From IMG/VR virus record IMGVR_UViG_3300047560_003072, positions 1 through 58,873 of that record: 58,873 nt of DNA, one strand, 5' to 3'. Origin of the DNA: a virus (lineage: Duplodnaviria; Caudoviricetes). A model generated the notes under the pieces. The model saw only the letters and a program-made list of their open reading frames with translations. It did not search any database and was not told the DNA's origin. Numbering within the stretch: the first letter of the stretch is position 1; every line of letters begins with the position of its first letter. Below, one piece after another: positions 17,555 through 30,176 of the stretch. Made by a program: the position numbers and the translations under genes.

Positions 17555-18382
17555 ATGATAAACATCGTTTGCGTCAAAATTGGAACAAAATACAGCAGTA
17601 AATTTGCAAATCGTCTGTATAATATGTGTCAAACACATATAACACGTCCATTCAAGTTTTTTTGTTATACAGATGATCCCAATGGACTCGATGCTGGTAT
17701 AACGCCTGTTTCATTTGTCGACAACGATATCAAAATTATTGTGTTTAATAAGTTGTATTTATTAAGCAATGAGTTTGCATCTATGATCGGCAACAACGAT
17801 CCTTGTATGTTTTTTGATCTCGATATGGTAATCAAGGGGAACATAGACAGGCTCGTCGATTGTGCAACCGATTATGATGGAAAGCTAAGAGTGATCAACG
17901 CTGTATGGAAATACTCGTTTGACGAGGAAGAAGGAATGGAAGCCTTTAATCACCACATCAACTCGAGCTGTATGGTGTGGAAACCAACCGCCAGCAACTA
18001 TATTTGGGAACACTTTGCTAAACACAAACATCACTTCCAACAAAAGTTTCACACAGGTATGGATCCGTTTCTTTATTACGAAATGCAATGCAGAGGTGGA
18101 TTGCCTGAAGATATGTTCTATTCCTTTATTATGGGAATAGATCTAAAGATTAAAAGAATGATAACCGACCCTGCTGATTTTTACAATGTAAAAAATTCTA
18201 TTCCAATTGTGCTGTTTAATGGTCCGACAACAGATGAAGACATTGTTGAATTCATTGCTAGTGACTACAAAAAGGAATTCGACGACTTTAGTTTTGCCGA
18301 ATTCCTATATGGAAATCAAAAGAAGCGTGAACAGTTAAACCGGCAAAGGAAGGATAAGATGGACAGAAGGTTAGCCCTCTGA
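17555..18382 (+). CDS. glycosyltransferase (GT-A fold)
   Basis: Likely start ATG 17555 (MINIVCVKIGTKY); FFCYTDD, NKLYL, DxD motif FFDLDMVI, INSSCM. Confidence 0.8.
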   Translation: MINIVCVKIGTKYSSKFANRLYNMCQTHITRPFKFFCYTDDPNGLDAGITPVSFVDNDIKIIVFNKLYLLSNEFASMIGNNDPCMFFDLDMVIKGNIDRLVDCATDYDGKLRVINAVWKYSFDEEEGMEAFNHHINSSCMVWKPTASNYIWEHFAKHKHHFQQKFHTGMDPFLYYEMQCRGGLPEDMFYSFIMGIDLKIKRMITDPADFYNVKNSIPIVLFNGPTTDEDIVEFIASDYKKEFDDFSFAEFLYGNQKKREQLNRQRKDKMDRRLAL

Positions 18383-18985
18383 TTCAATATCCGCTACCAT
18401 ATCTTCCCACATACCTTCATGCGGAATGATGTAAGCAAGTGTTAGACGCTCTTCATGCTCAGCATTAGCACAATGCCAGTAGATTCTGTCTGTTTCTTTC
18501 CACGAGCCGTAGTAACCAACCTTACAAGTCCATCCTGGAGTATCGTTAATTGTAACAATCTCTTTCGTGATTGGATCTTGGTAACGGAAATATCCAGTAC
18601 CTTTTTCAGACCATGAGATAAGAATGTTATAACCTGGGGCGTTTGCGTTGTGGTGCCATCCCATGTAACCCGTTGCGGGATATAACATCTTAACAGCGTT
18701 GTTACGAGAACCGGACCACGCAAGCAGATCTTCATCTAACTTCTTCAGCGCGTCTTTCAATCCAGGCGGTGTCCATCGTGCAAGATCAACACCGTGTGTC
18801 TTTTCCGGAAATCCATCAACAGGTTTGTTTTGCATGAATTTCAAATACTCATCACCGCAAGCATATTCAGCCGTTATGTCTTTCTTCTGATACGGCCAGC
18901 CTGATCTATCTACAGCAAGCATGCTGCTCAGAAAGGTGTTGATAATTTTTAAAAGCTGTTTGTTTCTAATTTGGATGGTCTTCAT
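18371..18985 (-). CDS. DSBH/2OG-Fe(II) dioxygenase-like protein
   Basis: GYMGWHHN...YWHCA...RLTL metal/cosubstrate-like motif spacing. Confidence 0.6.
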   Translation of the reverse strand: MKTIQIRNKQLLKIINTFLSSMLAVDRSGWPYQKKDITAEYACGDEYLKFMQNKPVDGFPEKTHGVDLARWTPPGLKDALKKLDEDLLAWSGSRNNAVKMLYPATGYMGWHHNANAPGYNILISWSEKGTGYFRYQDPITKEIVTINDTPGWTCKVGYYGSWKETDRIYWHCANAEHEERLTLAYIIPHEGMWEDMVADIESEG

Positions 18986-19683
18986 TATTTGCCTACTCTA
19001 TGTGGAAGTGTGTGGTGATAAAAAACGATAGGATTCTTCGCTTCGTAAGAACGGTATCCGTTTACGAAATTCCAACGACCATCATCATCGAATACTTGTA
19101 CGTTAATTGGTAGCTTATCTTCATTCATAAGTTTCCACAACGTAAATTGGTCCCACTGAGCAAATGCTTCGGGAATAACGTTCTCTGGGTAGGGCCATGG
19201 ATCGATACGTTGTTTCCGGTAGTCTTGCCACCATCTTTCCATAAAATTCAACGTGCGCTCGTTGCTGCGATAGAGAAAGAAGCCTCCGTGATAGACCATC
19301 TCTCCTGTTGACCATTTATGCATTTTGCCATTGTATGGTCGTATTTTTGTGATTAGAATATCACATTCTTCGGGAATCTCGTCCCAAATATTTTGCACAT
19401 CCGTGTGCATACATTCCATGTCCGCATCAACATAACACGTCAATTCCGTATAAGGAGTACGTGAAAGAGCATACAGCTTTGCTCTTATATGATGTGGGAC
19501 ATCTTCACAAATCACTCGATTGAAGACATCATGATCGACATCGTCAATGAATTGTGGAGTTGTAAAAAGCGTGATGTCAGCATCCGGATAGAACTCCTTG
19601 ATGCTCGCCGCTGCAAAATTAGCTCCCTGTACATATCCTTGATGTACGGAAGCCACAATCAAAAAACCATTACGAACTGTCAT
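18985..19683 (-). CDS. glycosyltransferase (GT-A, GT8/nucleotide-diphospho-sugar transferase-like)
   Basis: AASIK, KLYAL, DxD motif YVDAD, GGFFLY, DQFTL, WNF, FYHH. Confidence 0.8.
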   Translation of the reverse strand: MTVRNGFLIVASVHQGYVQGANFAAASIKEFYPDADITLFTTPQFIDDVDHDVFNRVICEDVPHHIRAKLYALSRTPYTELTCYVDADMECMHTDVQNIWDEIPEECDILITKIRPYNGKMHKWSTGEMVYHGGFFLYRSNERTLNFMERWWQDYRKQRIDPWPYPENVIPEAFAQWDQFTLWKLMNEDKLPINVQVFDDDGRWNFVNGYRSYEAKNPIVFYHHTLPHRVGK

Positions 19684-19686
19684 ATT

Positions 19687-20154
19687 TTACTCTGCGGGGG
19701 TGTCCTGTGTTTCTTCTTGAGACGGGTTTTGAATTGAATCGAGAATGATTGCTGCTGCATATGCATAAACTTCGAAGTCGGTCTTTGCACGGCGCAGAGA
19801 AGATTTCAATGATTTATTTGCAGTATTCTTAATAACATCGACTTCAAACGCTTGCAACTTAACAGCAAACAGACGCTCTTGACGCTCTTTGTCAATCTTA
19901 GCTTCTTCAGCAGCTTTCTTTGCTTCGAGTTCCTGAGCCTGCTTTTTGATCATTTTCTGCGTGTTCTGCTCAAGCTCATCAGCAGAAAACTTTGCTCTGA
20001 CCTCTTGATAGTCAGCGTTGTTAGACTCATTAGAGTTAATAACCGCTGTCGAAACGCGACCATCATCATAATGAAATTCCACCGATAGCACTGTACGTGC
20101 ATTGTTTGTCCAATGAGGATTCTTAATAGTTCTCTTCATGCTGTTCTTACCCAA
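19687..20154 (-). CDS. putative fibre assembly chaperone
   Basis: IKNPHWTNNARTVLSVEF resembles tail-fibre-assembly protein N-termini; overlaps the 3' end of the giant repeat gene. Confidence 0.45.
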   Translation of the reverse strand: MGKNSMKRTIKNPHWTNNARTVLSVEFHYDDGRVSTAVINSNESNNADYQEVRAKFSADELEQNTQKMIKKQAQELEAKKAAEEAKIDKERQERLFAVKLQAFEVDVIKNTANKSLKSSLRRAKTDFEVYAYAAAIILDSIQNPSQEETQDTPAE

Positions 20155-23100
20155 AGTTTAATTGTTGAAACTGTTTCTGGTGTTGACACAATTGTTAGAC
20201 CACTGAAAGCACCTGTGAAAGCTCCGGAGTAAACACCAGTAAACACGTTACCATAACCGCCCGTAAAATAACCAATATACCCTTGACCGTAGATGCCAGT
20301 ATAGGTTGTATTGTAATCACCAGTATATAGGCCTGAATAAATTCCTGTAAACGCTCCAGTGTATATCCCGCTGAACGCACCAGTAAATCCTTGGTTGTAA
20401 CTACCAGAATAGATACCGGTGTATGTTGTATTATACACTCCTGTAAATGCTCCAGTAAACGCTTGGTTATACGCACCAGTGAAAACCTGCGAGTAGTTTC
20501 CTGTGAACGCTCCAGTGAACGTTTGATTGTAGGTGCCAGTAAACGTTTGCTGGTAGTTACCTGTATAGTTACCGGTAAATACCTGTGAGTAGTTTCCTGT
20601 GAACGCTCCGGTGAATGTCTGGTTGTAGATACCAGTAAACGTCTGTCCGTAACTGCCTGAATATGCGCCAGTGAATGTCTGGTTGTAAACGCCTGTAAAT
20701 GTACCTGTAAACGTTTGGTTGTAAGCACCAGTAAACGTTTGGTTATAGGCACCGGTAAATGCTCCAGTGAAAACTTGGTTATATGCACCAGTAAAGGATT
20801 GTGCATATGAACCACTATACGTTGCCGTAAACGATCCTACATATCCACCCGAATACAAACCTGAGAACGTACCAACATAACCACCAGAATAGAAACCAGT
20901 AAAGTAGCCCGTATAGCCACCTGAGTACAAACCTGAGAACGTACCTACATATCCACCCGAATAAATGCCGGTAAACGATCCAGTGTAGTTGCCTGTGTAG
21001 ATACCAGTAAAGTAGCCCGTATAGCCACCTGAGTACAAACCTGAGAACGTACCAACATAACCACCCGAATAAATACCGGTAAACGATCCAGTGTAGTTGC
21101 CTGTGTAGATACCAGTAAAGTTTTGAGCATATGTGCCCGAGTATATACCGGTAAAGTTTTGTGCGTACGCACCGGAATATGCACCAGTAAAGTAACCAGT
21201 ATATCCACCCGCGTAATTACCTGCATAGTATCCAGTATAGTAGCCAGTGTATCCACCAGAATATGTACCAGTAAAATTCCACGCGTACGCACCAGCGTAT
21301 GCGCCGGTGAAGTAGCCAGTGTAAACACCCGAGTATGAACCAGTGTAGTAGCCAGTGTAGTAGCCAGTATAACCACCAGCATACACGCCTGAGAATGCTC
21401 GCGAATAGGATCCTGAATACGCCCCTGTAAAGTATCCAGTGTATCCGCCGGAATACAAACCAGTGTAGTAACCTGTATAGTAGCCAGTGTAGTAGCCAGT
21501 GTACACACCAGTAAAATATCCTACATATCCACCCGAATATTGACCTGTGAATGCTCTTGCATATGCACCCGAATAGAGGCCAGTGTAATAACTAGTGTAG
21601 TAACCTCCAAATGCACCTGTGAACGATCCGGTATAGTTACCGGTGTACAGGCCAGTGTAGTAACCGGTGTAGTAACCAGCATACGCGCCTGCATACGCAC
21701 CAGCAAAAGCTTTTGCAACCGTAGCATATCCACCAACATATGTTGCATACTCATAGGCAGGGCTACCTGCATAATATGCAAGCAAGCGATTACCAGCATA
21801 GTTACCGGTATAGATTGTTATACCAGCTGCATAGCTGCCTTGATAATATCCAACGTAATATTGAGGGTATCCAGCGTAGTAGGCCCAAAGACGGTTGTTG
21901 ACGTATGTACCGAGATAAGAAGCTCCGTTGACGTTATAACCAACACCGCCGCCAGGATTTGAATTACCAAACTTTTTCAAGTTTGTAAAGAACGTACGAG
22001 CATATAAACCGGTATAGTAACCAGTGTAGTAACCAGTGTAGTAACCAAGGTATGCGCCGGCATATGTGCCTGAATACACACCCGTAAACACTCTACTGTA
22101 GGCGCCAGCATAATACCCTAGGTATGATGTTGCATATGAGCCAGCATAAGCACCCGTAAAATATCCCGTGTAGTTACCCGTGTAAAGACCAGTAAACGTC
22201 TGTGCATAAGCGCCAGAATAATAACCTGTATAGTAGCCGGTATAGTAACCAGTGTACGTACCAGAATAGATGCCGGTAAACGTCTGTGCGTATGCACCAG
22301 AATAAATGCCAGTGAAATATCCTGTATAGAATCCTGTATAAAGACCCGTGTAGTAGCCAGTATAGTAGCCAGTGTAGTAGCCAGTGTAGATACCGGTGAA
22401 ACCTTGAGCATAAGCACCAGAATAGATGCCGGTAAAGTAACCAGTGTACGTACCAGCGTATATACCGGTATATACACCGGTGTAGTATCCTGTGTAGTAT
22501 CCCGTATAAACACCGGTAAACGTTTGTGCATATGCACCGGAATAGATGCCGGTAAAGTATCCCGTATAAACACCAGAATACAAGCCAGTAAAGTAACCAG
22601 TGTATGTGCCTGAATATGTACCAGTAAACACACGGCTATATGTTCCTGAATACGCACCAGTAAACGTTTGTTGATATGCTCCAGAGTATGTGCCAGTGAA
22701 TACTTGCTGATATGTGCCTGAATATGTACCAGTAAACACACGGCTATATGTTCCTGAATACGCACCAGTAAACGTTTGTTGATATGCTCCAGAGTATGTG
22801 CCAGTAAATACTTGCTGATATGTACCAGCATAGGCACCCGTGAAGGTCTGCTGATATGCACCAGCATATGTGCCTGTAAACGTCTGGTTATAAATGCCAG
22901 TGTATGCGCCAGTGAAGTAACCAGTGTACAAACCAGAGAACGTGCCAGTAAATCCTTGACTGTAAATGCCGCTGAACGTTCCTACATAGCCACCAGAGAA
23001 TGCTCCTGTGAATCCCTGATTAAATGCACCGGTGAACGCACCAACATATCCACCTGAGTAAATACCAGTGAAGACGTTACCATAACCACCTGTAAAGGCG

Positions 23101-24266
23101 CCAGTAAATCCTTGACTGTAAATGCCAGTGAAAGTTCCTACATAACCACCAGAATAGACACCCGTAAACACATTGGTGTATCCACCAGAGAATGCACCGG
23201 TAAATCCTTGGTTGTAAATGCCAGTAAAGGTACCAGTGTATCCACCAGAAAAAGCTCCCGTAAATGCTTGAGAGTACACACCCGTATAAGCAGCAGTGTA
23301 TGCTCCTGTGTAAGCACCAGTAAACGTTCCGGTAAATGTTTGGTTGAATACGCCAGTGAATCCCTGATTAAAGACTCCTGTATACGCACCCGAGTAAGCA
23401 CCTGTGTATGCTTTTGTATACGCACCTGTGTAACTACCGGTAAATGTCTGCGCATAGGCACCGGAGAATACTTGACCATACGTGCCAGTAAACGCACTTG
23501 TAAACGAACCAGAATAACTCTGTGTTGCTGTTGAATATTCTGTATCGTCAAAACCACTACCAGCCATTGTCCATGTTCCTGGAGCTGTTGGAGCGGTTGA
23601 GCTTAGTTGGTATTTTCCAATACCATTATTGACAATGTAGTTACGAAGCTTGAATGTCAGCAGCTTGATTTCAGCATCTGACATTTCACGGAAGCCGCCA
23701 TAGAACTTGATTGGACGTCTAACGTTTGTAATTGTTTCAGCAGTCTTCTGCCACAGTGTGGTTGTATTTGTCGTACCACTTGTCAGAGTGTTGGTGAGTG
23801 TTCCACGTGAAACCCATGTACCTGAAGCTGGTGCTGTTGGTTGCAAAACATAGCTACCAACACCACCGTTGACCAATGCAGACGCTGCTCGTGAAATGAT
23901 TGACGTGTCAATATCACTGTCTGGCATTTCCTGCCATCCGTTGAGTACTGTATTCCAGGCCAAAGGACGGTTAAATGTTTCTGATATTGAGCCGTTTGAA
24001 AGATCTTGATAAACGGTCGTCGAAGTACTTGTTGTTGCAGTTGGACTTACAGGATGTGTACCGAGAGGATCCGTACGGTAAGTATCAACCCATGTACCAA
24101 TTGAAGTTCCGTTGGCCATTGAACCAATAGCAAGCGAGCCAACGCTTGTATTAGCAGCGAATCCTTCATTAATTTTTTTCACAAGGTAGTCATCTATGTC
24201 CGTCGTGGACATAGTCTGAAGACCGTTAAGTGAAGTGTTGTATTTTACGGGAGATAGAATGGCCAT
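20136..24266 (-). CDS. 1376-aa (Y/F)xGx tetrapeptide-repeat virion fibre protein
   Basis: About 250-aa N-domain with three (Q/R)-(E/T)-M-S/P..D/E repeats; about 1100 aa of tetrapeptide repeats with a central unique segment; C-terminal strand TIKLWVRTA. Confidence 0.8.
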   Translation of the reverse strand: MAILSPVKYNTSLNGLQTMSTTDIDDYLVKKINEGFAANTSVGSLAIGSMANGTSIGTWVDTYRTDPLGTHPVSPTATTSTSTTVYQDLSNGSISETFNRPLAWNTVLNGWQEMPDSDIDTSIISRAASALVNGGVGSYVLQPTAPASGTWVSRGTLTNTLTSGTTNTTTLWQKTAETITNVRRPIKFYGGFREMSDAEIKLLTFKLRNYIVNNGIGKYQLSSTAPTAPGTWTMAGSGFDDTEYSTATQSYSGSFTSAFTGTYGQVFSGAYAQTFTGSYTGAYTKAYTGAYSGAYTGVFNQGFTGVFNQTFTGTFTGAYTGAYTAAYTGVYSQAFTGAFSGGYTGTFTGIYNQGFTGAFSGGYTNVFTGVYSGGYVGTFTGIYSQGFTGAFTGGYGNVFTGIYSGGYVGAFTGAFNQGFTGAFSGGYVGTFSGIYSQGFTGTFSGLYTGYFTGAYTGIYNQTFTGTYAGAYQQTFTGAYAGTYQQVFTGTYSGAYQQTFTGAYSGTYSRVFTGTYSGTYQQVFTGTYSGAYQQTFTGAYSGTYSRVFTGTYSGTYTGYFTGLYSGVYTGYFTGIYSGAYAQTFTGVYTGYYTGYYTGVYTGIYAGTYTGYFTGIYSGAYAQGFTGIYTGYYTGYYTGYYTGLYTGFYTGYFTGIYSGAYAQTFTGIYSGTYTGYYTGYYTGYYSGAYAQTFTGLYTGNYTGYFTGAYAGSYATSYLGYYAGAYSRVFTGVYSGTYAGAYLGYYTGYYTGYYTGLYARTFFTNLKKFGNSNPGGGVGYNVNGASYLGTYVNNRLWAYYAGYPQYYVGYYQGSYAAGITIYTGNYAGNRLLAYYAGSPAYEYATYVGGYATVAKAFAGAYAGAYAGYYTGYYTGLYTGNYTGSFTGAFGGYYTSYYTGLYSGAYARAFTGQYSGGYVGYFTGVYTGYYTGYYTGYYTGLYSGGYTGYFTGAYSGSYSRAFSGVYAGGYTGYYTGYYTGSYSGVYTGYFTGAYAGAYAWNFTGTYSGGYTGYYTGYYAGNYAGGYTGYFTGAYSGAYAQNFTGIYSGTYAQNFTGIYTGNYTGSFTGIYSGGYVGTFSGLYSGGYTGYFTGIYTGNYTGSFTGIYSGGYVGTFSGLYSGGYTGYFTGFYSGGYVGTFSGLYSGGYVGSFTATYSGSYAQSFTGAYNQVFTGAFTGAYNQTFTGAYNQTFTGTFTGVYNQTFTGAYSGSYGQTFTGIYNQTFTGAFTGNYSQVFTGNYTGNYQQTFTGTYNQTFTGAFTGNYSQVFTGAYNQAFTGAFTGVYNTTYTGIYSGSYNQGFTGAFSGIYTGAFTGIYSGLYTGDYNTTYTGIYGQGYIGYFTGGYGNVFTGVYSGAFTGAFSGLTIVSTPETVSTIKLWVRTA
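20895..21110. repeat. 108-bp tandem duplication (C-terminal arm)
   Basis: accagtaaag recurs at 20895, 21003 and 21111; encodes FTGIYTGNYTGSFTGIYSGGYVGTFSGLYSGGYTGY x2; few synonymous mismatches. Confidence 0.85.
22603..22818. repeat. 108-bp tandem duplication (N-terminal arm)
   Basis: tatgtgcctgaatatg at 22603 and 22711; encodes YQQVFTGTYSGAYQQTFTGAYSGTYSRVFTGTYSGT x2; nearly identical. Confidence 0.85.
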
Positions 24267-24284
24267 TACAATACTCTAGCAGTA

Positions 24285-26327
24285 TTACGCCGTTCTTACA
24301 TACAGCGTATACGTGGTTGGTGTTGTAGTATTTAGGACAGTCAAACCAGTGTATGCTCCTGTAAATGCTCCCGTGAACACTTTTGAGAATGCGCCTGTGT
24401 AAGCGCCAGTGTAGAAAGAAATATACGATCCAGTGAATGCACCAGTAAATACACGACTGTATGTACCAGAGAAGTATCCAATTGTTGAGTATACTCCCGT
24501 GTACGCGCCGGAATAAAATCCCGAATATGCGCCAGTGTACAAGCCGGTAAACGCACCCGTGTATATGCCAGTGTATGTTGTGTTGTATATACCCGAAAAT
24601 ACTCGCGAATACACACCTGTGAAGCCGCCTGAATATTGACCTGTGAATGCTCGAGAGTATGCACCCGTATATGCAGCAGTGTATGCACCTGTAAAGTTTA
24701 CGCTGCGTAAAGTCACATTAATATGCGTAAAAGTTTGTGCGTATGATCCGGAATACAAACCGGTGTAGTTACCGACATATGTTGTTGTAAATGCACCAAC
24801 GAAGCTAGCAAAACCGCTGACGTATGCTCCCGAAAAATATCCTATACCGGTTCCACCACCACCGACGTAGTAGTGAGCATACCCTCCAACAAACACGCCT
24901 GCATAAATGTTTGGTGTTGAAGCGGAATAATTACCAACATATACACCCGTAAAGTAATGTGGGTGACCGTTGTAATAACCATTCAGGTAGTTATCAGTAT
25001 AATAACCAACATATGAGTTATCATACCACGACCAACCTATGTTTAGGTAATCTGTATAATACTGACGAGAGAATGCTTGTATTCGTGTTGGACCTTGTGA
25101 TATACGTGTGTATACACCCGAGTACTGGCCAGTGAATGCTCCCGTATAGTTACCAATATATGTACCAGAGAATGCACCGGTGTACGTACCGGCATAAGTT
25201 GTATTGTATGCTCCAGTAAATGCACCCGTATAAACGCCAGTAAAAATGTTACCATATGCACCGGTAAATGCACCCGTATAATTTCCTGCGTATCCCGTTA
25301 CATAACCACCAGTGAATGACTGGCCATACGTTCCGGAATATGAGCCTGCATAATATCCTATGTACGCACCAACGTAGTTACCTGAATAGTTTAAAATCGA
25401 TTGGTAGATACCTGAGAACGCGCCCGTAAATCCACCTGAATATTGACCAGTATAAGCCGTTGCATAGTTACCAATATAGGTACCAGAGAATGCACCTGTG
25501 AATGATTGTTGATATGTGCCCGAATACGAAATACCAGACAAATCATTAATTTTGTCAATGTAAGCACCACGACCGACCCATGTTCCTGTTCCTGGAGCAG
25601 CCGTACCAACATTATATGTACCTACACCTGTGGTACGATAATATTCACCAAGGAATGGAGCAAGAGCGGTGATATCCGCCTGCGTCATTTCAGTCAACTG
25701 ATTGTTGACGAGCTTTAATGGTAGGTTTGTACTTGCGTTGTTAGCTGTCCATGCATCTGTACGTTGATACAGTCTATACACTTCAAGAATATTAGTGCCT
25801 GCTGAATCATAGTGCTGCTGGAAAAAATAGTTGTTTCTGTCTGTCCATGTTCCTGCCGGTAACGAATCACTCGGTGCAAGTAGGTAGTATGATCCACGAC
25901 CACCTGTAAGCATCGAAGAAGCAGAAACAATGTATGGCCAGAAGAAGCTGTTCATGTCATCATTTGACATTTCACGAACTTGATATTCACCACCAGAGAG
26001 AACGTAATGCACAGGGCGCGCCTGTGTGGTCATTGTTTGTGTACTATACGTTTGATACAGTGTATGTGTGTCGTATGATACAGATGCTGGGTGAACACCT
26101 ACTCCAGCCGTATAACCATCAAGAGCAGCTCCACGAGAAACGTAATTTGCAACCGAAGGATATTGGTCAAAACGAATCCAGTTACCCGTATTTTCAATAA
26201 GGGTATTGTTAGCAAGTACTGTGTTAATTATAAGAGGAATGACGAGATCTTGGAGCTCCGCATCAGACATCTCCTGCAAACCAACCGCTACTGCTCCACT
26301 ATATTTTGCTCGGAGTGGTCTTCCCAT
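24285..26327 (-). CDS. 680-aa paralogous (Y/F)xGx tetrapeptide-repeat fibre protein
   Basis: Same N-domain motifs (GLQEMSDAE, REMSNDD, TEMTQAD, GTW..RG); about 390 aa of repeats; ends TYTLYVRTA. Confidence 0.8.
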   Translation of the reverse strand: MGRPLRAKYSGAVAVGLQEMSDAELQDLVIPLIINTVLANNTLIENTGNWIRFDQYPSVANYVSRGAALDGYTAGVGVHPASVSYDTHTLYQTYSTQTMTTQARPVHYVLSGGEYQVREMSNDDMNSFFWPYIVSASSMLTGGRGSYYLLAPSDSLPAGTWTDRNNYFFQQHYDSAGTNILEVYRLYQRTDAWTANNASTNLPLKLVNNQLTEMTQADITALAPFLGEYYRTTGVGTYNVGTAAPGTGTWVGRGAYIDKINDLSGISYSGTYQQSFTGAFSGTYIGNYATAYTGQYSGGFTGAFSGIYQSILNYSGNYVGAYIGYYAGSYSGTYGQSFTGGYVTGYAGNYTGAFTGAYGNIFTGVYTGAFTGAYNTTYAGTYTGAFSGTYIGNYTGAFTGQYSGVYTRISQGPTRIQAFSRQYYTDYLNIGWSWYDNSYVGYYTDNYLNGYYNGHPHYFTGVYVGNYSASTPNIYAGVFVGGYAHYYVGGGGTGIGYFSGAYVSGFASFVGAFTTTYVGNYTGLYSGSYAQTFTHINVTLRSVNFTGAYTAAYTGAYSRAFTGQYSGGFTGVYSRVFSGIYNTTYTGIYTGAFTGLYTGAYSGFYSGAYTGVYSTIGYFSGTYSRVFTGAFTGSYISFYTGAYTGAFSKVFTGAFTGAYTGLTVLNTTTPTTYTLYVRTA

Positions 26328-26328
26328 G

Positions 26329-27537
26329 TTATGGTCCTACGCGCGTGCCAGAAGAATTGTAAATTCCAAAATTACCTGCATGAACAACGTTTCCACTCTT
26401 ATATTGGAAGTTGTTTGAGTTGATCAAAAGACCAGCCGTTACAGTTGTTGAGTTGACTAAGTTAAACAAGAATCCACCATCACTTACAGAGCTATTCGAA
26501 TTATCATATGTGCTGAAAGTCAAACGTGTATTGCCTGCTGCCGAACTCATAAACGCAATCGATGAGTTCTGTGCTGTATTAGACGTCTGGAATCTTACAC
26601 CGTTGTTAGCTGTATTGAAAAATACGTTACCAGCAATTGTAACCAATCCATCAGCAGAAGGGGCACTGTTATTTAAGCCTATTCTATTATTTGTTGCATC
26701 AACAAACAACAGGCTTGTTTTAATTGCTACGTTTCCTGTCGTTACAGCAAAGTCGGAAACAACAGTCATTGAGCCGTTTACAATACCACTACCAAGAACA
26801 CGCAACGTGCCAACGTTCGCTACGCCTGTTGGAGCAAAGATTGAACCGTTTTGTGATAGTGTGATTTTGATCGGTGTTAGTGTGTGGCCGGTTTCAGAAG
26901 AACCAGCTGTAATATTGATTGCGGAACCACCATACGTGGCCGACAGTTGCAATGCTGTTGTGTTAGCACCAACAACATAATAGTATGCAGCATTTGATAG
27001 ACCAGAAACGGCCGTGTTACCTGCAGCTACCAAATATTGAACGTAGTCACCTGTTGTCAAACCATGAGCTGCTGTCGTTGTGATGTATTCTGTTGCACTT
27101 GCAACACCAGACAGAGCATTAAACGTAGCAGCAGCGGCCGTATTAGTAACAACAACGTTACCAGTTGTTACGGAGCTGATCGCTGTGATTGTATTTGCTG
27201 TAATCGTCCAAAGTTTGGTTGCAGAACCAAAGATAGACGTGGTATTGGAAATCGGTAGTAGATTTCCTGCTATAACATTATTGAGAGTTGAAGTATCAGA
27301 AACAGTTACATTTCCAATTGTGGCCGTAGAACTATAAAGCAACCAACGAGCAGTTGTATTACCCAACGCATACGTGTTATCCGAGGTTGGTTTGTAGTCT
27401 GCTGATGATGTACCGCTGAATGCAAGGTTACCGTCTACTGTAAAGTCACCACCAATACGCAACGACCCACTAACGTTGGCTGTACCGACAACATCTAATC
27501 CATGCTCAATTTTGAATTTTGTATTACCTGAAGCCAT
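26329..27537 (-). CDS. fibre/adaptor protein
   Basis: KFKIEHGL N-motif, P..DNTYALGNTTARW motif, TTAAHGL..GD module, LFVDATNNRIG repeat. Confidence 0.7.
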   Translation of the reverse strand: MASGNTKFKIEHGLDVVGTANVSGSLRIGGDFTVDGNLAFSGTSSADYKPTSDNTYALGNTTARWLLYSSTATIGNVTVSDTSTLNNVIAGNLLPISNTTSIFGSATKLWTITANTITAISSVTTGNVVVTNTAAAATFNALSGVASATEYITTTAAHGLTTGDYVQYLVAAGNTAVSGLSNAAYYYVVGANTTALQLSATYGGSAINITAGSSETGHTLTPIKITLSQNGSIFAPTGVANVGTLRVLGSGIVNGSMTVVSDFAVTTGNVAIKTSLLFVDATNNRIGLNNSAPSADGLVTIAGNVFFNTANNGVRFQTSNTAQNSSIAFMSSAAGNTRLTFSTYDNSNSSVSDGGFLFNLVNSTTVTAGLLINSNNFQYKSGNVVHAGNFGIYNSSGTRVGP

Positions 27538-27548
27538 CGCTTACCCTA

Positions 27549-30176
27549 TTACTTGATGAGTTGTACAAACGCTTTGACGTTTGTATTTGAGCTCGTTGGC
27601 TTGAACAAAACAGCAACGGCCGTACTATTTATCGATGTCGAAAATAGACCAACGTTTGCCAAAGTAGTTGAACCAACCGTCGCAAACATTGTGATCGTTG
27701 AATCAGTACGGTTTTGAGCAATTAAGAATTCTTGTACTTGTGAGTTACCACCAGTACCACCAAGTCCGACCGTACCTACACGTGCAAAAACTTTTGCGCC
27801 ATAATATGTCAATGGGAAGTTAAACACTTCAACGGCCGAGTATGCTGCTGCATTTCCTGTCTGAGTGTTTGCAGTGCCAAGGTCGGTATTTGAAACAACA
27901 TATTCCAGCACATCATTTTGAAGAGTGACGGTGTTGCTAAACGTGACTGGACCCGTGACGGATAGCGTGTTGCTAAATGTTACAGCACCTGTTGCACTTA
28001 GCGTATTCGATAGCGTTGCTGCACCAGTCACAGTGATTGTATTGCTGAAACTAGCTGAGTTTGTAACAGACAATGTATTGCTAAACGATACAGCACCTGT
28101 TGCAGACAACGTATTGCTAAACGATACAGCACCTGTTGCAGACAACGTATTGCTAAACGATACAGCACCTGTTGCAGACAACGTATTGCTAAATGTTGCT
28201 GCACCAGTCACAGCGATTGTGCTGCTAAACGTTACAGCGCCCGTAGCGGATAATGTGTTGCTAAATGTTGCAGCGCCTGTCGCGGAGATTGTGTTACTAA
28301 AACTAGCTGAGTTTGTAACAGACAATGTATTGCTGAATGTTACAGCACCTGTTGCACTTAGCGTATTGCTGAATGTTACAGCACCTGTTGCACTTAGCGT
28401 ATTGCTGAATGTTACAGCACCAGTCACAGTAATTGTATTACTGAAGCTGGCTGCATTTGTAACAGATAAAGTATTACCGAACGACGCAGCTCCAGTAGCG
28501 GATAATGTATTGCTAAATGTTGCAGCACCAGTTACGGCAATTGTGTTCGATAGTGTTGCAGCACCTGTCAGTGTAGAGGTACCGAGAACACGCAATGATC
28601 CAACGTTAGCAAGACCGATTGGTGATTCAATATCACCTGTTGCGCGCAGACTAATTCTTTGTGGTGTCAGCGTGTGACCGGTTTCACTTGTAGCAGTTGC
28701 AGTGATGTTTATATTTGCACCACCATATGTTGTAGCAAGCTGGAATGCTGTCGAGTTTGCACCAACAACATAGTAGTTTGTTGCGTTAGCCAAACCGGTA
28801 AGAGCTGTATTACCTGCTGAAACAATATAACGAACTAAATCACCGTTGGCAAATCCATGAGCAGCAGTGGTCACAATATAATCAGTTGCGCTCGTCACAC
28901 CTGTAGCAGGATTGAACGTTGCGGAGGTACCGACGATGTTAGCAAAACCAGTTACAGTGGTGTTACCAATAAATGTCGTGTTGTTGACATAAAGAACACC
29001 GTTTACTGTAGCATCACCAGCAACACCAATTGTGTTAGCAAGAGAGACAATACCTGTAACTTTTAGTGTATCAACGGAAACGTTTAGGTTACTTACAGTA
29101 GAGTTAGCAAGAAGAGCAATACTTGTCAATGAGCTGTTTGCTTTAATTGTTGTATTGCCAGTAACCGTTGTGATACCTGTGACACCAAGTGAAGAGACAG
29201 TAATGTCCGCGTTTGTAACTGTAGAGTTACTTGTGAATGCTGCCATTGTTGTGGTAGCATTTGCCTTCAATGTTACGTTGCCTGTAACAGTCGCTGTAGC
29301 AACTGTCGCAGAAATATTAGATGTCACACTCAACGAACCACCTTGAATGGTAGTAGCTGCAGCGTTAACAAACGCGTTTGCAGCATTAACATACGTATTC
29401 GAAGTCGTTGTTAAAGAACCGCCCTGAATGGTAGCGGCTGAAGTATTAATATACGCATTTGCTGCGTTAATGTATGTATTCGATGTGGTCGTTAATTGAC
29501 CACTTTGTACCGTTGTGACAGCAGCATTGACAAAAACGTTAGCTGCATTGATATATGCGTTTGATGTAACAGTAACATTACCACTAGCGACGGTCATAAC
29601 AGCCGCGCTAATATAGGTGTTTGTTGTTGTAAGAGAAGTTGTGTTAGCAACAATGTCAACGTTTGTTGTCGTTGTGTTACTCGTCAGAGACACCATTGTG
29701 GTGCCACCGTTTGCATTCTTTGTTGTTACGTTGCCGTAAACAGATGTCGTTTGCGTATTGATTGCAAGCGCAGTTGTATTAACTGTTACATTAGCTGCGT
29801 TGACATAGGTGTTGGATGTAACAACTACATTACCACCAACAACGCGGAAAAACGAACCATTAACATACGTATTAGCTGCTTCGATGTAGATATTTGCAGT
29901 CGAATTTAAAATGGTGCCAGTGAAGAGTGCGTTGGATGTAATTGAAAGGTTGGTTGAGGTCGCAACATTACCACCGCGCAAAACATTACCTACAGCCACG
30001 GTGTTGGCAGCAAAAATACCATTAACCTGTGAGTTACCAGTTACCCATGCACCATTCGCAGCGCTGTTTGCTGTAACAGCCTGATATGTAAAGGTGTCTG
30101 CCATCTGGTTGGTGATACCAACCCACGATGCAAAGGAATCGGTTGCAATTACTACATTAGATATCGCTCGTGCCAT
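27549..30176 (-). CDS. long fibre protein with 12-aa repeats
   Basis: DSFASWVGITN N-motif typical of baseplate-attached fibres; TTAAHGF module; (T/S)FSNTLSATGA(V/A) repeats; beta-sandwich C-terminus. Confidence 0.75.
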   Translation of the reverse strand: MARAISNVVIATDSFASWVGITNQMADTFTYQAVTANSAANGAWVTGNSQVNGIFAANTVAVGNVLRGGNVATSTNLSITSNALFTGTILNSTANIYIEAANTYVNGSFFRVVGGNVVVTSNTYVNAANVTVNTTALAINTQTTSVYGNVTTKNANGGTTMVSLTSNTTTTNVDIVANTTSLTTTNTYISAAVMTVASGNVTVTSNAYINAANVFVNAAVTTVQSGQLTTTSNTYINAANAYINTSAATIQGGSLTTTSNTYVNAANAFVNAAATTIQGGSLSVTSNISATVATATVTGNVTLKANATTTMAAFTSNSTVTNADITVSSLGVTGITTVTGNTTIKANSSLTSIALLANSTVSNLNVSVDTLKVTGIVSLANTIGVAGDATVNGVLYVNNTTFIGNTTVTGFANIVGTSATFNPATGVTSATDYIVTTAAHGFANGDLVRYIVSAGNTALTGLANATNYYVVGANSTAFQLATTYGGANINITATATSETGHTLTPQRISLRATGDIESPIGLANVGSLRVLGTSTLTGAATLSNTIAVTGAATFSNTLSATGAASFGNTLSVTNAASFSNTITVTGAVTFSNTLSATGAVTFSNTLSATGAVTFSNTLSVTNSASFSNTISATGAATFSNTLSATGAVTFSSTIAVTGAATFSNTLSATGAVSFSNTLSATGAVSFSNTLSATGAVSFSNTLSVTNSASFSNTITVTGAATLSNTLSATGAVTFSNTLSVTGPVTFSNTVTLQNDVLEYVVSNTDLGTANTQTGNAAAYSAVEVFNFPLTYYGAKVFARVGTVGLGGTGGNSQVQEFLIAQNRTDSTITMFATVGSTTLANVGLFSTSINSTAVAVLFKPTSSNTNVKAFVQLIK
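27920..28570. repeat. 36-bp (12-aa) tandem coding repeat array
   Basis: Roughly 17-18 degenerate units; near-identical gtattgctaaacgatacagcacctgttgcagacaac copies around 28076-28183. Confidence 0.85.

What the first reader, a model, noticed from the sequence alone, without database searches (positions are those of the whole stretch)
20895..22818. Matched 108-bp (36-aa) duplications at mirror positions in both arms
Seen: two unrelated recent tandem duplications, both with a 108-bp period, at 22603-22818 (about aa 483-554) and 20895-21110 (about aa 1052-1124). Their positions are symmetric about aa 803, the same centre as the whole repeat region. The N-arm unit has bulky tetrads (YQQV, YQQT, YSRV); the C-arm unit has Gly-rich ones (YSGG). 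Inference: lengthening one arm must be compensated in the other to keep register. This is independent evidence for arm-arm pairing and points to a length-tuning mechanism.
Basis: partly seen in the sequence, partly recalled or inferred. Interest (0 to 1): 0.85.

Follow-up and report, generated by a model that had tools for sequence, protein, structure and literature searches.

The report
Matched duplications in fold-back phage fibre
A phage fibre protein that seems to run out and fold back on itself has recently lengthened both halves by the same 36 residues at facing positions, which shows how such fibres can change length without losing their fit.

Summary
Gene 20136-24266 (-), 1376 aa, in a T4-like phage fragment, carries two young 108-bp tandem duplications. 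One has 112/113 identical bases between copies and the other 116/119, and all differences are synonymous.

They lie 250-323 aa after the base in the outgoing arm and 252-327 aa before the C-terminus in the returning arm.

The repeat region (128 + 126 tetrads, [YF]xGx) is an insert in the last beta-hairpin of a three-repeat base domain. It must therefore leave and return to the same spot.

The family has 508 clusters, no Pfam or PHROG match and no cultured phage. In it:
- arm lengths stay equal: 18/18 and 4/4 with a conserved tip motif, and 42/42 reliable pairs;
- register breaks are mirrored: 72/152 against about 38 expected;
- tandem arrays come as same-period pairs in both arms: 9/9 lineages, 0/100000 shuffles.

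Compensatory lengthening is therefore a family rule.

Not shown:
- that these two duplications co-occur. Other samples hold single-copy forms of each site, but never phased.
- the 3-D form. AlphaFold was uninformative for the arms.
- any dedicated length-tuning mechanism.

This scan had already noted the fold-back family on many other genomes. The new point here is a very recent, apparently polymorphic matched pair.

The parts
20136..24266 (-). Whole gene, 1376 aa (P0001): fold-back fibre protein
   Evidence: ORF list, translation
23517..24266 (-). Base domain, aa 1-250: three internal repeats (..EMSDxEI.. GxGxYxL ..TAP..GTW.. hairpin ..LWQRT)
   Evidence: G.W at 57, 149, 230. The profile of this domain hits 508 clusters. 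In the paralogue it is modelled at pLDDT above 90.
21981..23516 (-). Outgoing (N) arm, aa 251-762: 128 tetrads [YF]xGx with no register break
22603..22823 (-). N-arm 108-bp tandem duplication (aa 482-555), 112/113 identical between copies
   Evidence: D3: 22711-22818 is 99% identical to 22603-22710
21708..21980 (-). Irregular centre, aa 763-853, presumed distal tip
20196..21707 (-). Returning (C) arm, aa 854-1357: 126 tetrads with no register break
20895..21121 (-). C-arm 108-bp tandem duplication (aa 1049-1124), 116/119 identical between copies
20139..20195 (-). C-terminal tail LTIVSTPETVSTIKLWVRTA: closing strand of base repeat 3
   Evidence: Tail motif L[WY]x[RK]xx ends 128 of 159 proteins on file. 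In the paralogue model the tail has pLDDT 95-96, with strands 250-272 and 655-678.
24285..26327 (-). Shorter paralogue (P0002, 680 aa) with the same design. Its register breaks lie 62 aa from the base in the N arm and 63 aa in the C arm.

Best explanation
The gene encodes a virion fibre-like protein of an uncultured T4-like phage. A small three-repeat base domain has its last beta-hairpin drawn out into a 1107-residue excursion: 128 tetrads out, a ~90-residue irregular tip, and 126 tetrads back. The closing strand (..KLWVRTA) then completes the base. Because the chain leaves and re-enters the base at the same hairpin, the two arms must run antiparallel. They are most likely in direct, in-register contact, with Tyr/Phe of one arm over Gly of the other. 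Any lengthening of one arm then has to be matched opposite it in the other arm. The two 108-bp duplications are such a matched pair. They are two separate tandem duplications of unrelated 36-residue units, at the same distance from the base, of the same length and of similar young age, retained by selection for equal, register-matched arms. Shown: the duplications and their positions; the insert-in-a-hairpin topology; and the family-wide rules of equal arms, mirrored breaks and same-period paired arrays. Inferred: direct strand-to-strand pairing; the Tyr-over-Gly geometry; the order and selective history of the two events; and the function (a length-variable, probably host-binding fibre).
For: Duplications. 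Positions: 250-323 aa after W232 against 252-327 aa before residue 1376. If an 18-tetrad block were placed at random in a 126-tetrad arm, about 3 of 109 positions would fall within one tetrad of the mirror (my arithmetic). Topology: the three repeats are visible. Family members as short as 278-316 aa carry only a few tetrads out, a Gly turn and a few tetrads back. The AlphaFold model of the paralogue puts the tail (pLDDT 95-96) and strands 250-272 and 655-678 with the base. Equal arms: 18/18 with N-C between -4 and 0 while the insert runs 125-329 aa; 4/4 at -3.0 with steps of 13 aa per arm; 42/42 reliable pairs with dN/dL of 0.48-0.53. Indels sit at similar distances from the tip in both arms, e.g. 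+21 at 38 and +21 at 27, or +13 at 29 and +13 at 21. Mirrored register breaks: 72 of 152, null 37-39, reached in 0 of 2000 shuffles. Paired arrays: the same period in both arms in 9 of 9 collapsed lineages, with periods of 13, 16, 28, 36, 40 and 52 aa. Shuffled pairing gives a mean of 1.8 and a maximum of 8, and reaches 9 in 0 of 100000 runs. Register signal in this protein: side-chain volume anticorrelation is strongest at i+j = 1603 of 55 values in its class. N-bulky against C-GlyGly tetrads peak at shift +2 (r 0.48 against a background of -0.02, sd 0.12), and N-GlyGly against C-bulky gives r 0.46 at the same shift. Not a stutter artefact: the copies differ. In the best-holding run, contigs break at both sites, with unit contigs at 42-64x against flanks at 19-39x, and 3 contigs fit two places.
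Against: Co-occurrence of this pair is untested. A contig of run X2 skips exactly 108 bases at the C site. Contigs of X3 and X5 skip 108 at the N site. In each of these runs the other site is unresolved. X2 even has cover inside the N duplication (mean depth 5.57 in 22646-22792) with none on either side, so a one-sided form cannot be excluded. No structure supports a two-stranded ribbon. The AlphaFold arms are at low confidence, and its middling-confidence model of the paralogue's C arm is a solenoid on its own. The family rule is not absolute. 80 of 152 N-half breaks have no partner. Unmatched arrays exist: L020 long, L013 short, L074, P0051, P0089, P0024 and extra arrays in four others. In L006-type long paralogues the tip lies 10-60 aa before the midpoint. 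Of all 200 pairs with a length difference of 16 aa or more, 27 gave dN/dL below 0.2 or above 0.8; these are mostly poorly aligned. Pairs and proteins are not phylogenetically independent. The aromatic-rich tetrad profile peaks at shift 11, not 0-2.
Confidence: 0.72

Rival explanations
1. The arms are length-matched only because the chain must return to the base. Each arm folds on its own, for example as a tetrapeptide-repeat beta-solenoid rod or as part of a trimeric fibre, and the arms are not zipped residue to residue. The duplications are still compensatory in length, but their facing positions are not required.
For: The AlphaFold model of the paralogue's C arm (residues 508-649, pLDDT about 45-78) matches pentapeptide-repeat and bactofilin solenoids at Z 8.2-9.9, rmsd 2.2-3.1 over 85-111 residues. 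DSSP shows an 8-residue strand period there. Phage fibres are usually trimers (general knowledge).
Against: Register breaks and indels are mirrored at residue scale, and paired arrays overlap in distance from the base. Independent rods would not need this. Family members with 3-5 tetrads per arm cannot form a solenoid and read as plain hairpins. That part of the model is of low confidence, and the N arm is unmodelled.
Confidence: 0.17
2. Coincidence: two unrelated, neutral tandem duplications happen to have the same length and mirrored positions.
For: The gene is full of 12-, 36-, 60-, 96-, 108- and 120-bp periodicities that favour slippage or unequal exchange. Only one pair is seen in this gene.
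Against: The chance of a position match is about 3 in 109, before requiring equal length and similar age. The same pattern recurs in 9 of 9 lineages with six different periods. Arm equality is tight across the family.
Confidence: 0.04
3. Assembly artefact: one or both duplications were created by the assembler from strain variants of a single unit.
For: Short-read metagenome assembly. Contigs of three other runs show the single-copy form at one or the other site. The best-holding run contains more than one strain (depth 39x in the middle of the gene against 19-24x at its ends).
Against: In that run the contigs break at both sites, the unit contigs carry 1.6-2.6 times the depth of their flanks, and 3 contigs fit two places. 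The copies differ only at synonymous sites and keep frame and tetrad register. An artefact would not be expected to produce equal lengths at mirrored positions.
Confidence: 0.05

Closest known systems
Receptor-binding needle of the T4 long tail fibre, gp37 domains D10-D11
   Same: A phage fibre end in which the chain runs out to a tip and comes back. The collar D10 is made of residues 811-881 plus 1010-1026, so D11 is an excursion between them. A Gly in a strand (G921) must stay Gly because a Phe (F970) packs on it. (Passages read in PMC6957217.)
   Different: gp37 is an interwoven trimer held by seven irons on His motifs (same passages). Here the arms hold no His, Pro or Cys in 1016 residues. 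They are 4-residue repeats ten-fold longer, and the oligomeric state is unknown. No sequence family links the two (Pfam and PHROGs empty).
Antiparallel coiled-coil hairpins (SMC/Rad50 arms; alpha-hairpins of periplasmic adaptor proteins)
   Same: Two distant segments of one chain pair antiparallel, and their lengths change together. This is the principle at work here. (Recalled knowledge; PMC8277102 was seen only as a search listing.)
   Different: Those are alpha-helical heptads. Here the chain is strand-like, with Tyr/Gly tetrads and a beta-rich base.
Pentapeptide-repeat (Rfr) and bactofilin beta-solenoids
   Same: Very short sequence period. They are the best structural neighbours of the modelled C arm of the paralogue (Z 8.2-9.9).
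   Different: The period here is 4, not 5. The match rests on a low-confidence part of the model. The out-and-back mirrored design has no counterpart.
MABP / MACPF-associated beta-prism domains
   Same: A three-fold pseudo-symmetric beta domain. Chains 8b6v_A, 2qp2_A and 3tow_A align to the base of the paralogue model at Z 6.1, 5.6 and 5.4 over 114-124 residues.
   Different: The Z values are within the range the tool calls common. There is no sequence relation and none of these has a long hairpin insert.

Membership tests
Unnamed phage family: three-repeat GTW base with a hairpin insert (this scan's 'fold-back fibre') | N-terminal three-repeat domain matching the family profile | tested here: met
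   P0001 aa 1-250 is the first row of profile A1. The profile finds 508 clusters at E<=0.001 and 152 at E<=1e-30. Identity to the L007 long paralogue is 63%.
Unnamed phage family: three-repeat GTW base with a hairpin insert (this scan's 'fold-back fibre') | C-terminal closing strand ..L[WY]x[RK]xx at the very end | tested here: met
   P0001 ends KLWVRTA. The motif ends 128 of 159 proteins on file.
Unnamed phage family: three-repeat GTW base with a hairpin insert (this scan's 'fold-back fibre') | Insert between the third GTW and the closing strand has two arms of equal length about a tip | tested here: met
   128 against 126 tetrads. The irregular centre 763-853 contains the insert midpoint at 804.
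Pentapeptide repeat proteins (Pfam clan, A(D/N)LXX) | Five-residue period with the central Leu/Phe pointing inward | tested here: not met
   The period is strictly 4 over 254 tetrads. No Pfam pentapeptide hit.
T4 gp37-type needle | His-x-His iron-binding motifs along the needle | tested here: not met
   0 His in the 1016 arm residues.
T4 gp37-type needle | Trimeric interwoven assembly | not testable with these tools
   No oligomer prediction was run.
Collagen-like / Gly-X-Y phage fibres | Three-residue period with Gly at every third position | tested here: not met
   Gly recurs every fourth residue. No collagen family in Pfam.
Any Pfam-A or PHROGs family | Profile match above threshold | tested here: not met
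   Pfam gives only Gly-zipper_YMGG at 22.3 bits, below its 28.9 cut-off. PHROGs gives 0 families. tblastn of the paralogue's base domain against 50,697 phage records finds no match.

The most novel reading that the evidence does not exclude
These proteins are an undescribed class of phage fibre. A single chain folds back into a very long two-stranded ribbon, zipped by Tyr/Phe over Gly in a four-residue code. Its length evolves as RNA stems do, by paired compensatory changes: a tandem duplication in one arm is fixed only together with an equal one facing it. The pair in this window was caught soon after it arose and is still polymorphic between >=99%-identical phages in different waters. That makes fibre length a fast-evolving, tunable trait for reaching a host surface.
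Probability: 0.45. Interest if true: 0.85.

Novelty: new variant of a known kind. Interest (0 to 1): 0.74.

Why it matters
If the reading holds, it gives a rule for how a long protein fibre changes length without misfolding: paired duplications at facing positions. That is a protein counterpart of compensatory base-pair changes. It would also turn plain sequence comparison into a contact map for a large, unannotated family of phage structural proteins (508 clusters at 50% identity, with inserts of 46 to 2304 residues). The young, apparently polymorphic pair here offers a natural experiment: phasing the two sites in environmental reads would measure directly how strongly one-sided forms are selected against. 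The tetrad ribbon could also interest protein designers as a length-programmable rod.

Tried and rejected
Near-identical relatives for a direct co-occurrence test: none could be fetched.
- megablast of 18000-28000 against phage records: no match.
- The search for related loci with P0001 in viral contigs (2 loci, 46-50% identity) and in metagenome contigs (10 loci, 43-60%).
- Exact look-up of P0001 and P0002: not in the collection.
- Word search for shorter fragments of aa 470-1140: 100 hits, best identity 58%.
- The first word search with aa 1-250 found nothing among 8000 candidates.
- An exact 34-base pattern from the tip: 0 matches in viral contigs.
- The tools state that records very near the window may be left out.

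Complex prediction on the two arm segments (aa 447-590 with 1013-1160): no verdict, score 0.00, controls not run. This is no evidence either way.

AlphaFold of P0001 aa 177-1376 without an alignment: mean pLDDT 32.6, not usable.

Foldseek of the paralogue model against PDB and BFVD: nothing at E<=0.001. The profile of the base domain against PDB sequences gave only two hits at E 0.11-0.2. The ESM Atlas gave only unnamed viral clusters at 0.88-0.89. Pfam on five long relatives, including P0016 with its non-repeat centre, found 0 families.

My first statistic, the centre of mass of irregular residues, was dropped. Evenly scattered irregularities also give 0.5, and some third-repeat anchors were wrong.

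A single-event origin was considered and rejected. The arms are not inverted repeats (0 pairs of 40 nt or more). The two units are unrelated. A shifted double crossover would give one gain and one loss, not two gains (reasoning).

Literature: three full-text searches returned no paper on a tetrapeptide Tyr/Gly fold-back phage fibre or on compensatory duplications in fibres. I saw listings and abstract starts only, except PMC6957217, where I read passages. Supplements were not consulted.

Parts of runs X2, X3 and X5 without cover are not used as evidence.
Full report
Context. The window is a 58.9-kb fragment of an uncultured virus, estimated 33% complete. Baseplate wedge genes of T4 type lie downstream (PHROGs). 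Its gp6-like protein is closest to those of Sinorhizobium phages phiM12 and phiN3 and Caulobacter phage Cr30, at 40-41% identity. The finding lies in the 1376-aa ORF at 20136-24266 on the minus strand. A 680-aa paralogue sits directly upstream at 24285-26327. The same short-plus-long gene pair occurs in related contigs.

Observation. Both duplications are real features of the sequence.
- TRF gives 22603-22823 (period 108, 2.0 copies, 99%) and 20890-21121 (period 108, 2.1 copies, 96%).
- At offset 108, 112 of 113 bases match in the first and 116 of 119 in the second.
- The encoded copies are identical, so all four differences are synonymous.
- Measured from the base, the N array spans 250-323 residues after W232. 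The C array spans 252-327 residues before the C-terminus. The midpoint of the two arrays (802.5) is within 2 residues of the insert midpoint (804).
The N unit holds three tetrads with a non-Gly third residue (YQQV, YQQT, YSRV), spaced three tetrads apart. The C unit holds YSGG, YSGG and YTGN at the same spacing.
- These are the only arrays of 92% identity or more in the protein.

Architecture. Residues 1-250 hold three copies of a module of the form ..EMSDxEI.., GxGxYxL, TAP..GTW, then a hairpin ending ..LWQRT. In the third copy, the sequence after GTW runs into 128 uninterrupted tetrads [YF]xGx (aa 251-762). Next come a 91-residue irregular segment and 126 uninterrupted tetrads (aa 854-1357). 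Only then does the closing strand ..STIKLWVRTA appear. The arms hold no His, Pro, Cys or Glu, and a single Asp and a single Lys, in 1016 residues.

A profile of the base domain finds 508 clusters at 50% identity. Among the sequences I collected there are 179 distinct complete inserts, from 46 to 2304 residues. The shortest read as plain hairpins: a few tetrads, a Gly-rich turn, then the same number of tetrads.

The AlphaFold model of the paralogue, built on a 50-row alignment, gives the base at pLDDT above 90 and the last 20 residues at 95-96. It also has long strands at 250-272 and 655-678, and a hairpin after each GTW. The repeat region is thus an excursion from one hairpin of the base and must return to where it started. 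This is the strongest single argument for antiparallel arms, and it does not depend on the duplications.

Family tests of the compensation idea.
- (a) Eighteen proteins share the tip motif [YF]GG[FY][VIA]G[GT]. Their inserts range from 125 to 329 residues, yet N minus C lies between -4 and 0 in 18 of 18.
- (b) Four close relatives with an [NS]EGG tip have arms of 139.5/142.5, 152.5/155.5, 165.5/168.5 and 165.5/168.5. Steps of 13 residues are thus taken in both arms. A fifth relative with a different tip gives +6.
- (c) There are 267 pairs with 60% or more identity in the base domain. Of these, 42 have a length difference of at least 16, insert identity of at least 0.7 and tip identity of at least 0.7. 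All 42 put 48-53% of the difference in the N half. Over all 200 pairs with a difference of at least 16, 129 lie within 40-60% and 27 lie below 20% or above 80%; the outliers are mostly poorly aligned.
- (d) Aligning the arms separately places the gains at similar distances from the tip, e.g. +21 at 38 and +21 at 27, +13 at 29 and +13 at 21, +20 at 4 and +21 at 5.
- (e) In 66 proteins with regular arms, 72 of 152 register breaks in the N half have a break at the same distance from the base (within 6 residues) in the C half. Two randomisations expect 37-39, and neither reaches 72 in 2000 runs. The window's paralogue has breaks at 62 and 63.
- (f) High-identity tandem arrays come in pairs. There are 13 proteins with arrays of period 13 or more in both arms, and I collapsed them to 9 lineages. 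All 9 share a period between the arms: 13, 13, 16, 16, 28, 36, 40, 40 and 52 residues. The paired arrays lie at overlapping or adjacent distances from the base. Shuffling which C arm goes with which N arm gives a mean of 1.8 and never 9 in 100000 runs.
- In the relatives these arrays are old, with 76-97% nucleotide identity but about 90-96% protein identity. The pair in this window is by far the youngest.

Exceptions exist and are listed under evidence against: unmatched arrays, unmatched breaks, and tips displaced by 10-60 residues in one subfamily. All these counts involve related sequences, so they overstate the number of independent events.

Register within this protein. I scanned the pairing sum i+j. 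The anticorrelation of side-chain volumes is strongest at 1603 among the 55 values of its class (r -0.627 against a mean of -0.578, sd 0.018). In that class, aromatic residues face the Gly position. At tetrad level, bulky N tetrads correlate best with Gly-Gly C tetrads at shift +2 (r 0.48 over 81 shifts). Gly-Gly N tetrads, which lie in a different zone (tetrads 22-43), correlate with bulky C tetrads at r 0.46 at the same shift, although their best shift is +5 at r 0.47. The broad profile of aromatic-rich tetrads is mirrored, with smoothed r 0.73 antiparallel against -0.73 in the parallel control, but it peaks at shift 11. I read this as moderate support for a specific register in which the two duplicated blocks face each other within about one tetrad. 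It is not proof.

Population data. Seven public runs from five studies hold part of the gene, and I laid four of them.
- X1 (95% of sampled words, possibly the source). Contigs stop at both duplications. Short unit contigs carry 42-46x and 64x against flanks of 19-39x. Three contigs fit two places. All of this is as expected for true two-copy arrays collapsed at k=31.
- X2 (11 of 12 laid contigs at 99% or more). One 1102-base contig runs 20800-20967 and then 21076-22009, skipping exactly 108 bases. The bin depths (3.13 and 3.64) are fully accounted for by that contig alone.
- X3 (15 of 16 contigs at 99% or more). A 321-base contig runs 22501-22602 and then 22711-22929, and again it alone accounts for the bin depths (3.40 and 2.73).
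- X5. One contig skips 22698 to 22807.

So nearly identical phages in other waters appear to carry one copy at the C site (X2) or at the N site (X3, X5), although collapse by the assembler cannot be fully excluded. No contig spans both sites, and the state of the other site is unresolved in each run. The decisive co-occurrence test therefore remains undone.

Structure. AlphaFold did not yield a confident model of the arms. Its middling-confidence C arm of the paralogue resembles pentapeptide-repeat solenoids, which I keep as a rival for the 3-D form. The base weakly resembles MABP-type beta-prisms (Z 5.4-6.1).

Comparison with the known. No Pfam, PHROG or PDB relative, and no cultured-phage homologue, was found. 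The nearest described design is the gp37 needle of T4. There the collar is built from residues 811-881 plus 1010-1026, so the chain goes out and returns, and a strand Gly is needed under a Phe (PMC6957217, passages). That needle is an iron-stapled trimer of about 130 residues per excursion. The principle of co-varying antiparallel arms is familiar from coiled-coil hairpins (recalled). Three literature searches found nothing on this tetrad fibre.

Earlier notes of this scan describe the same fold-back family on many other genomes, including relatives that lengthen both halves together. I re-derived those rules from my own data. What this finding adds is a very recent, equal-length, facing pair of duplications, and the general rule of same-period paired arrays.

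Verdict. Novelty: a new variant of a known kind (a fold-back fibre with length-matched arms) in an unannotated family.

Noticed in passing
window 20000-24400 (run X1): In the best-holding run the middle of the gene (21115-22600) has contig depth 39x, while the two ends have 19x and 24x. Several loose ends branch off inside the arms. At least two strains seem to share an identical middle part and tip but differ in the base-proximal arms.
   Followed up: partly
P0016 (1335 aa), around its residue 790: The midpoint of this family member's insert lies in ordinary non-repeat sequence, so a sizeable non-tetrad segment sits where the tip should be. Pfam finds nothing in it.
   Followed up: partly
L007, L008, L009, L006, L013, L014, L019 long paralogues: Paired tandem arrays in relatives keep about 90-96% protein identity between copies at only 76-92% nucleotide identity. 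Selection seems to keep the units alike long after duplication.
   Followed up: partly
window 20196-23516 (arms of P0001): Extreme composition. Among 1016 arm residues there are 232 Gly, 200 Tyr, 183 Thr and 93 Phe. There is no His, Pro, Cys or Glu, and only one Asp, one Lys and six Arg. Glycosyltransferase-like genes lie just downstream (Pfam hits on 18985-19683).
   Followed up: no
P0022, P0035, P0038, P0095, P0110, P0148: In these family members the base domain starts only at residue 95-107, so they carry an extra N-terminal segment of about 100 residues. P0110 is 2661 aa, with a 2304-residue insert.
   Followed up: no
P0011 against P0012: P0011 (531 aa) follows P0012 closely, with scattered substitutions, through most of the outgoing arm and then runs into unrelated sequence without the closing strand. 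It is probably a frameshifted or misassembled copy.
   Followed up: no
L006 1-5988, L007 2860-7845, window 24285-30176: Gene order is conserved around the pair: a fibre protein with ..GNTTITGFANVSSTLNVVGAATVNG.. repeats, a ~400-aa protein, the short fold-back paralogue and then the long one.
   Followed up: no
P0002 model residues 508-649: AlphaFold draws the returning arm of the paralogue as a solenoid with an 8-residue strand period. It resembles pentapeptide-repeat proteins (Z up to 9.9) at pLDDT of about 45-78.
   Followed up: partly
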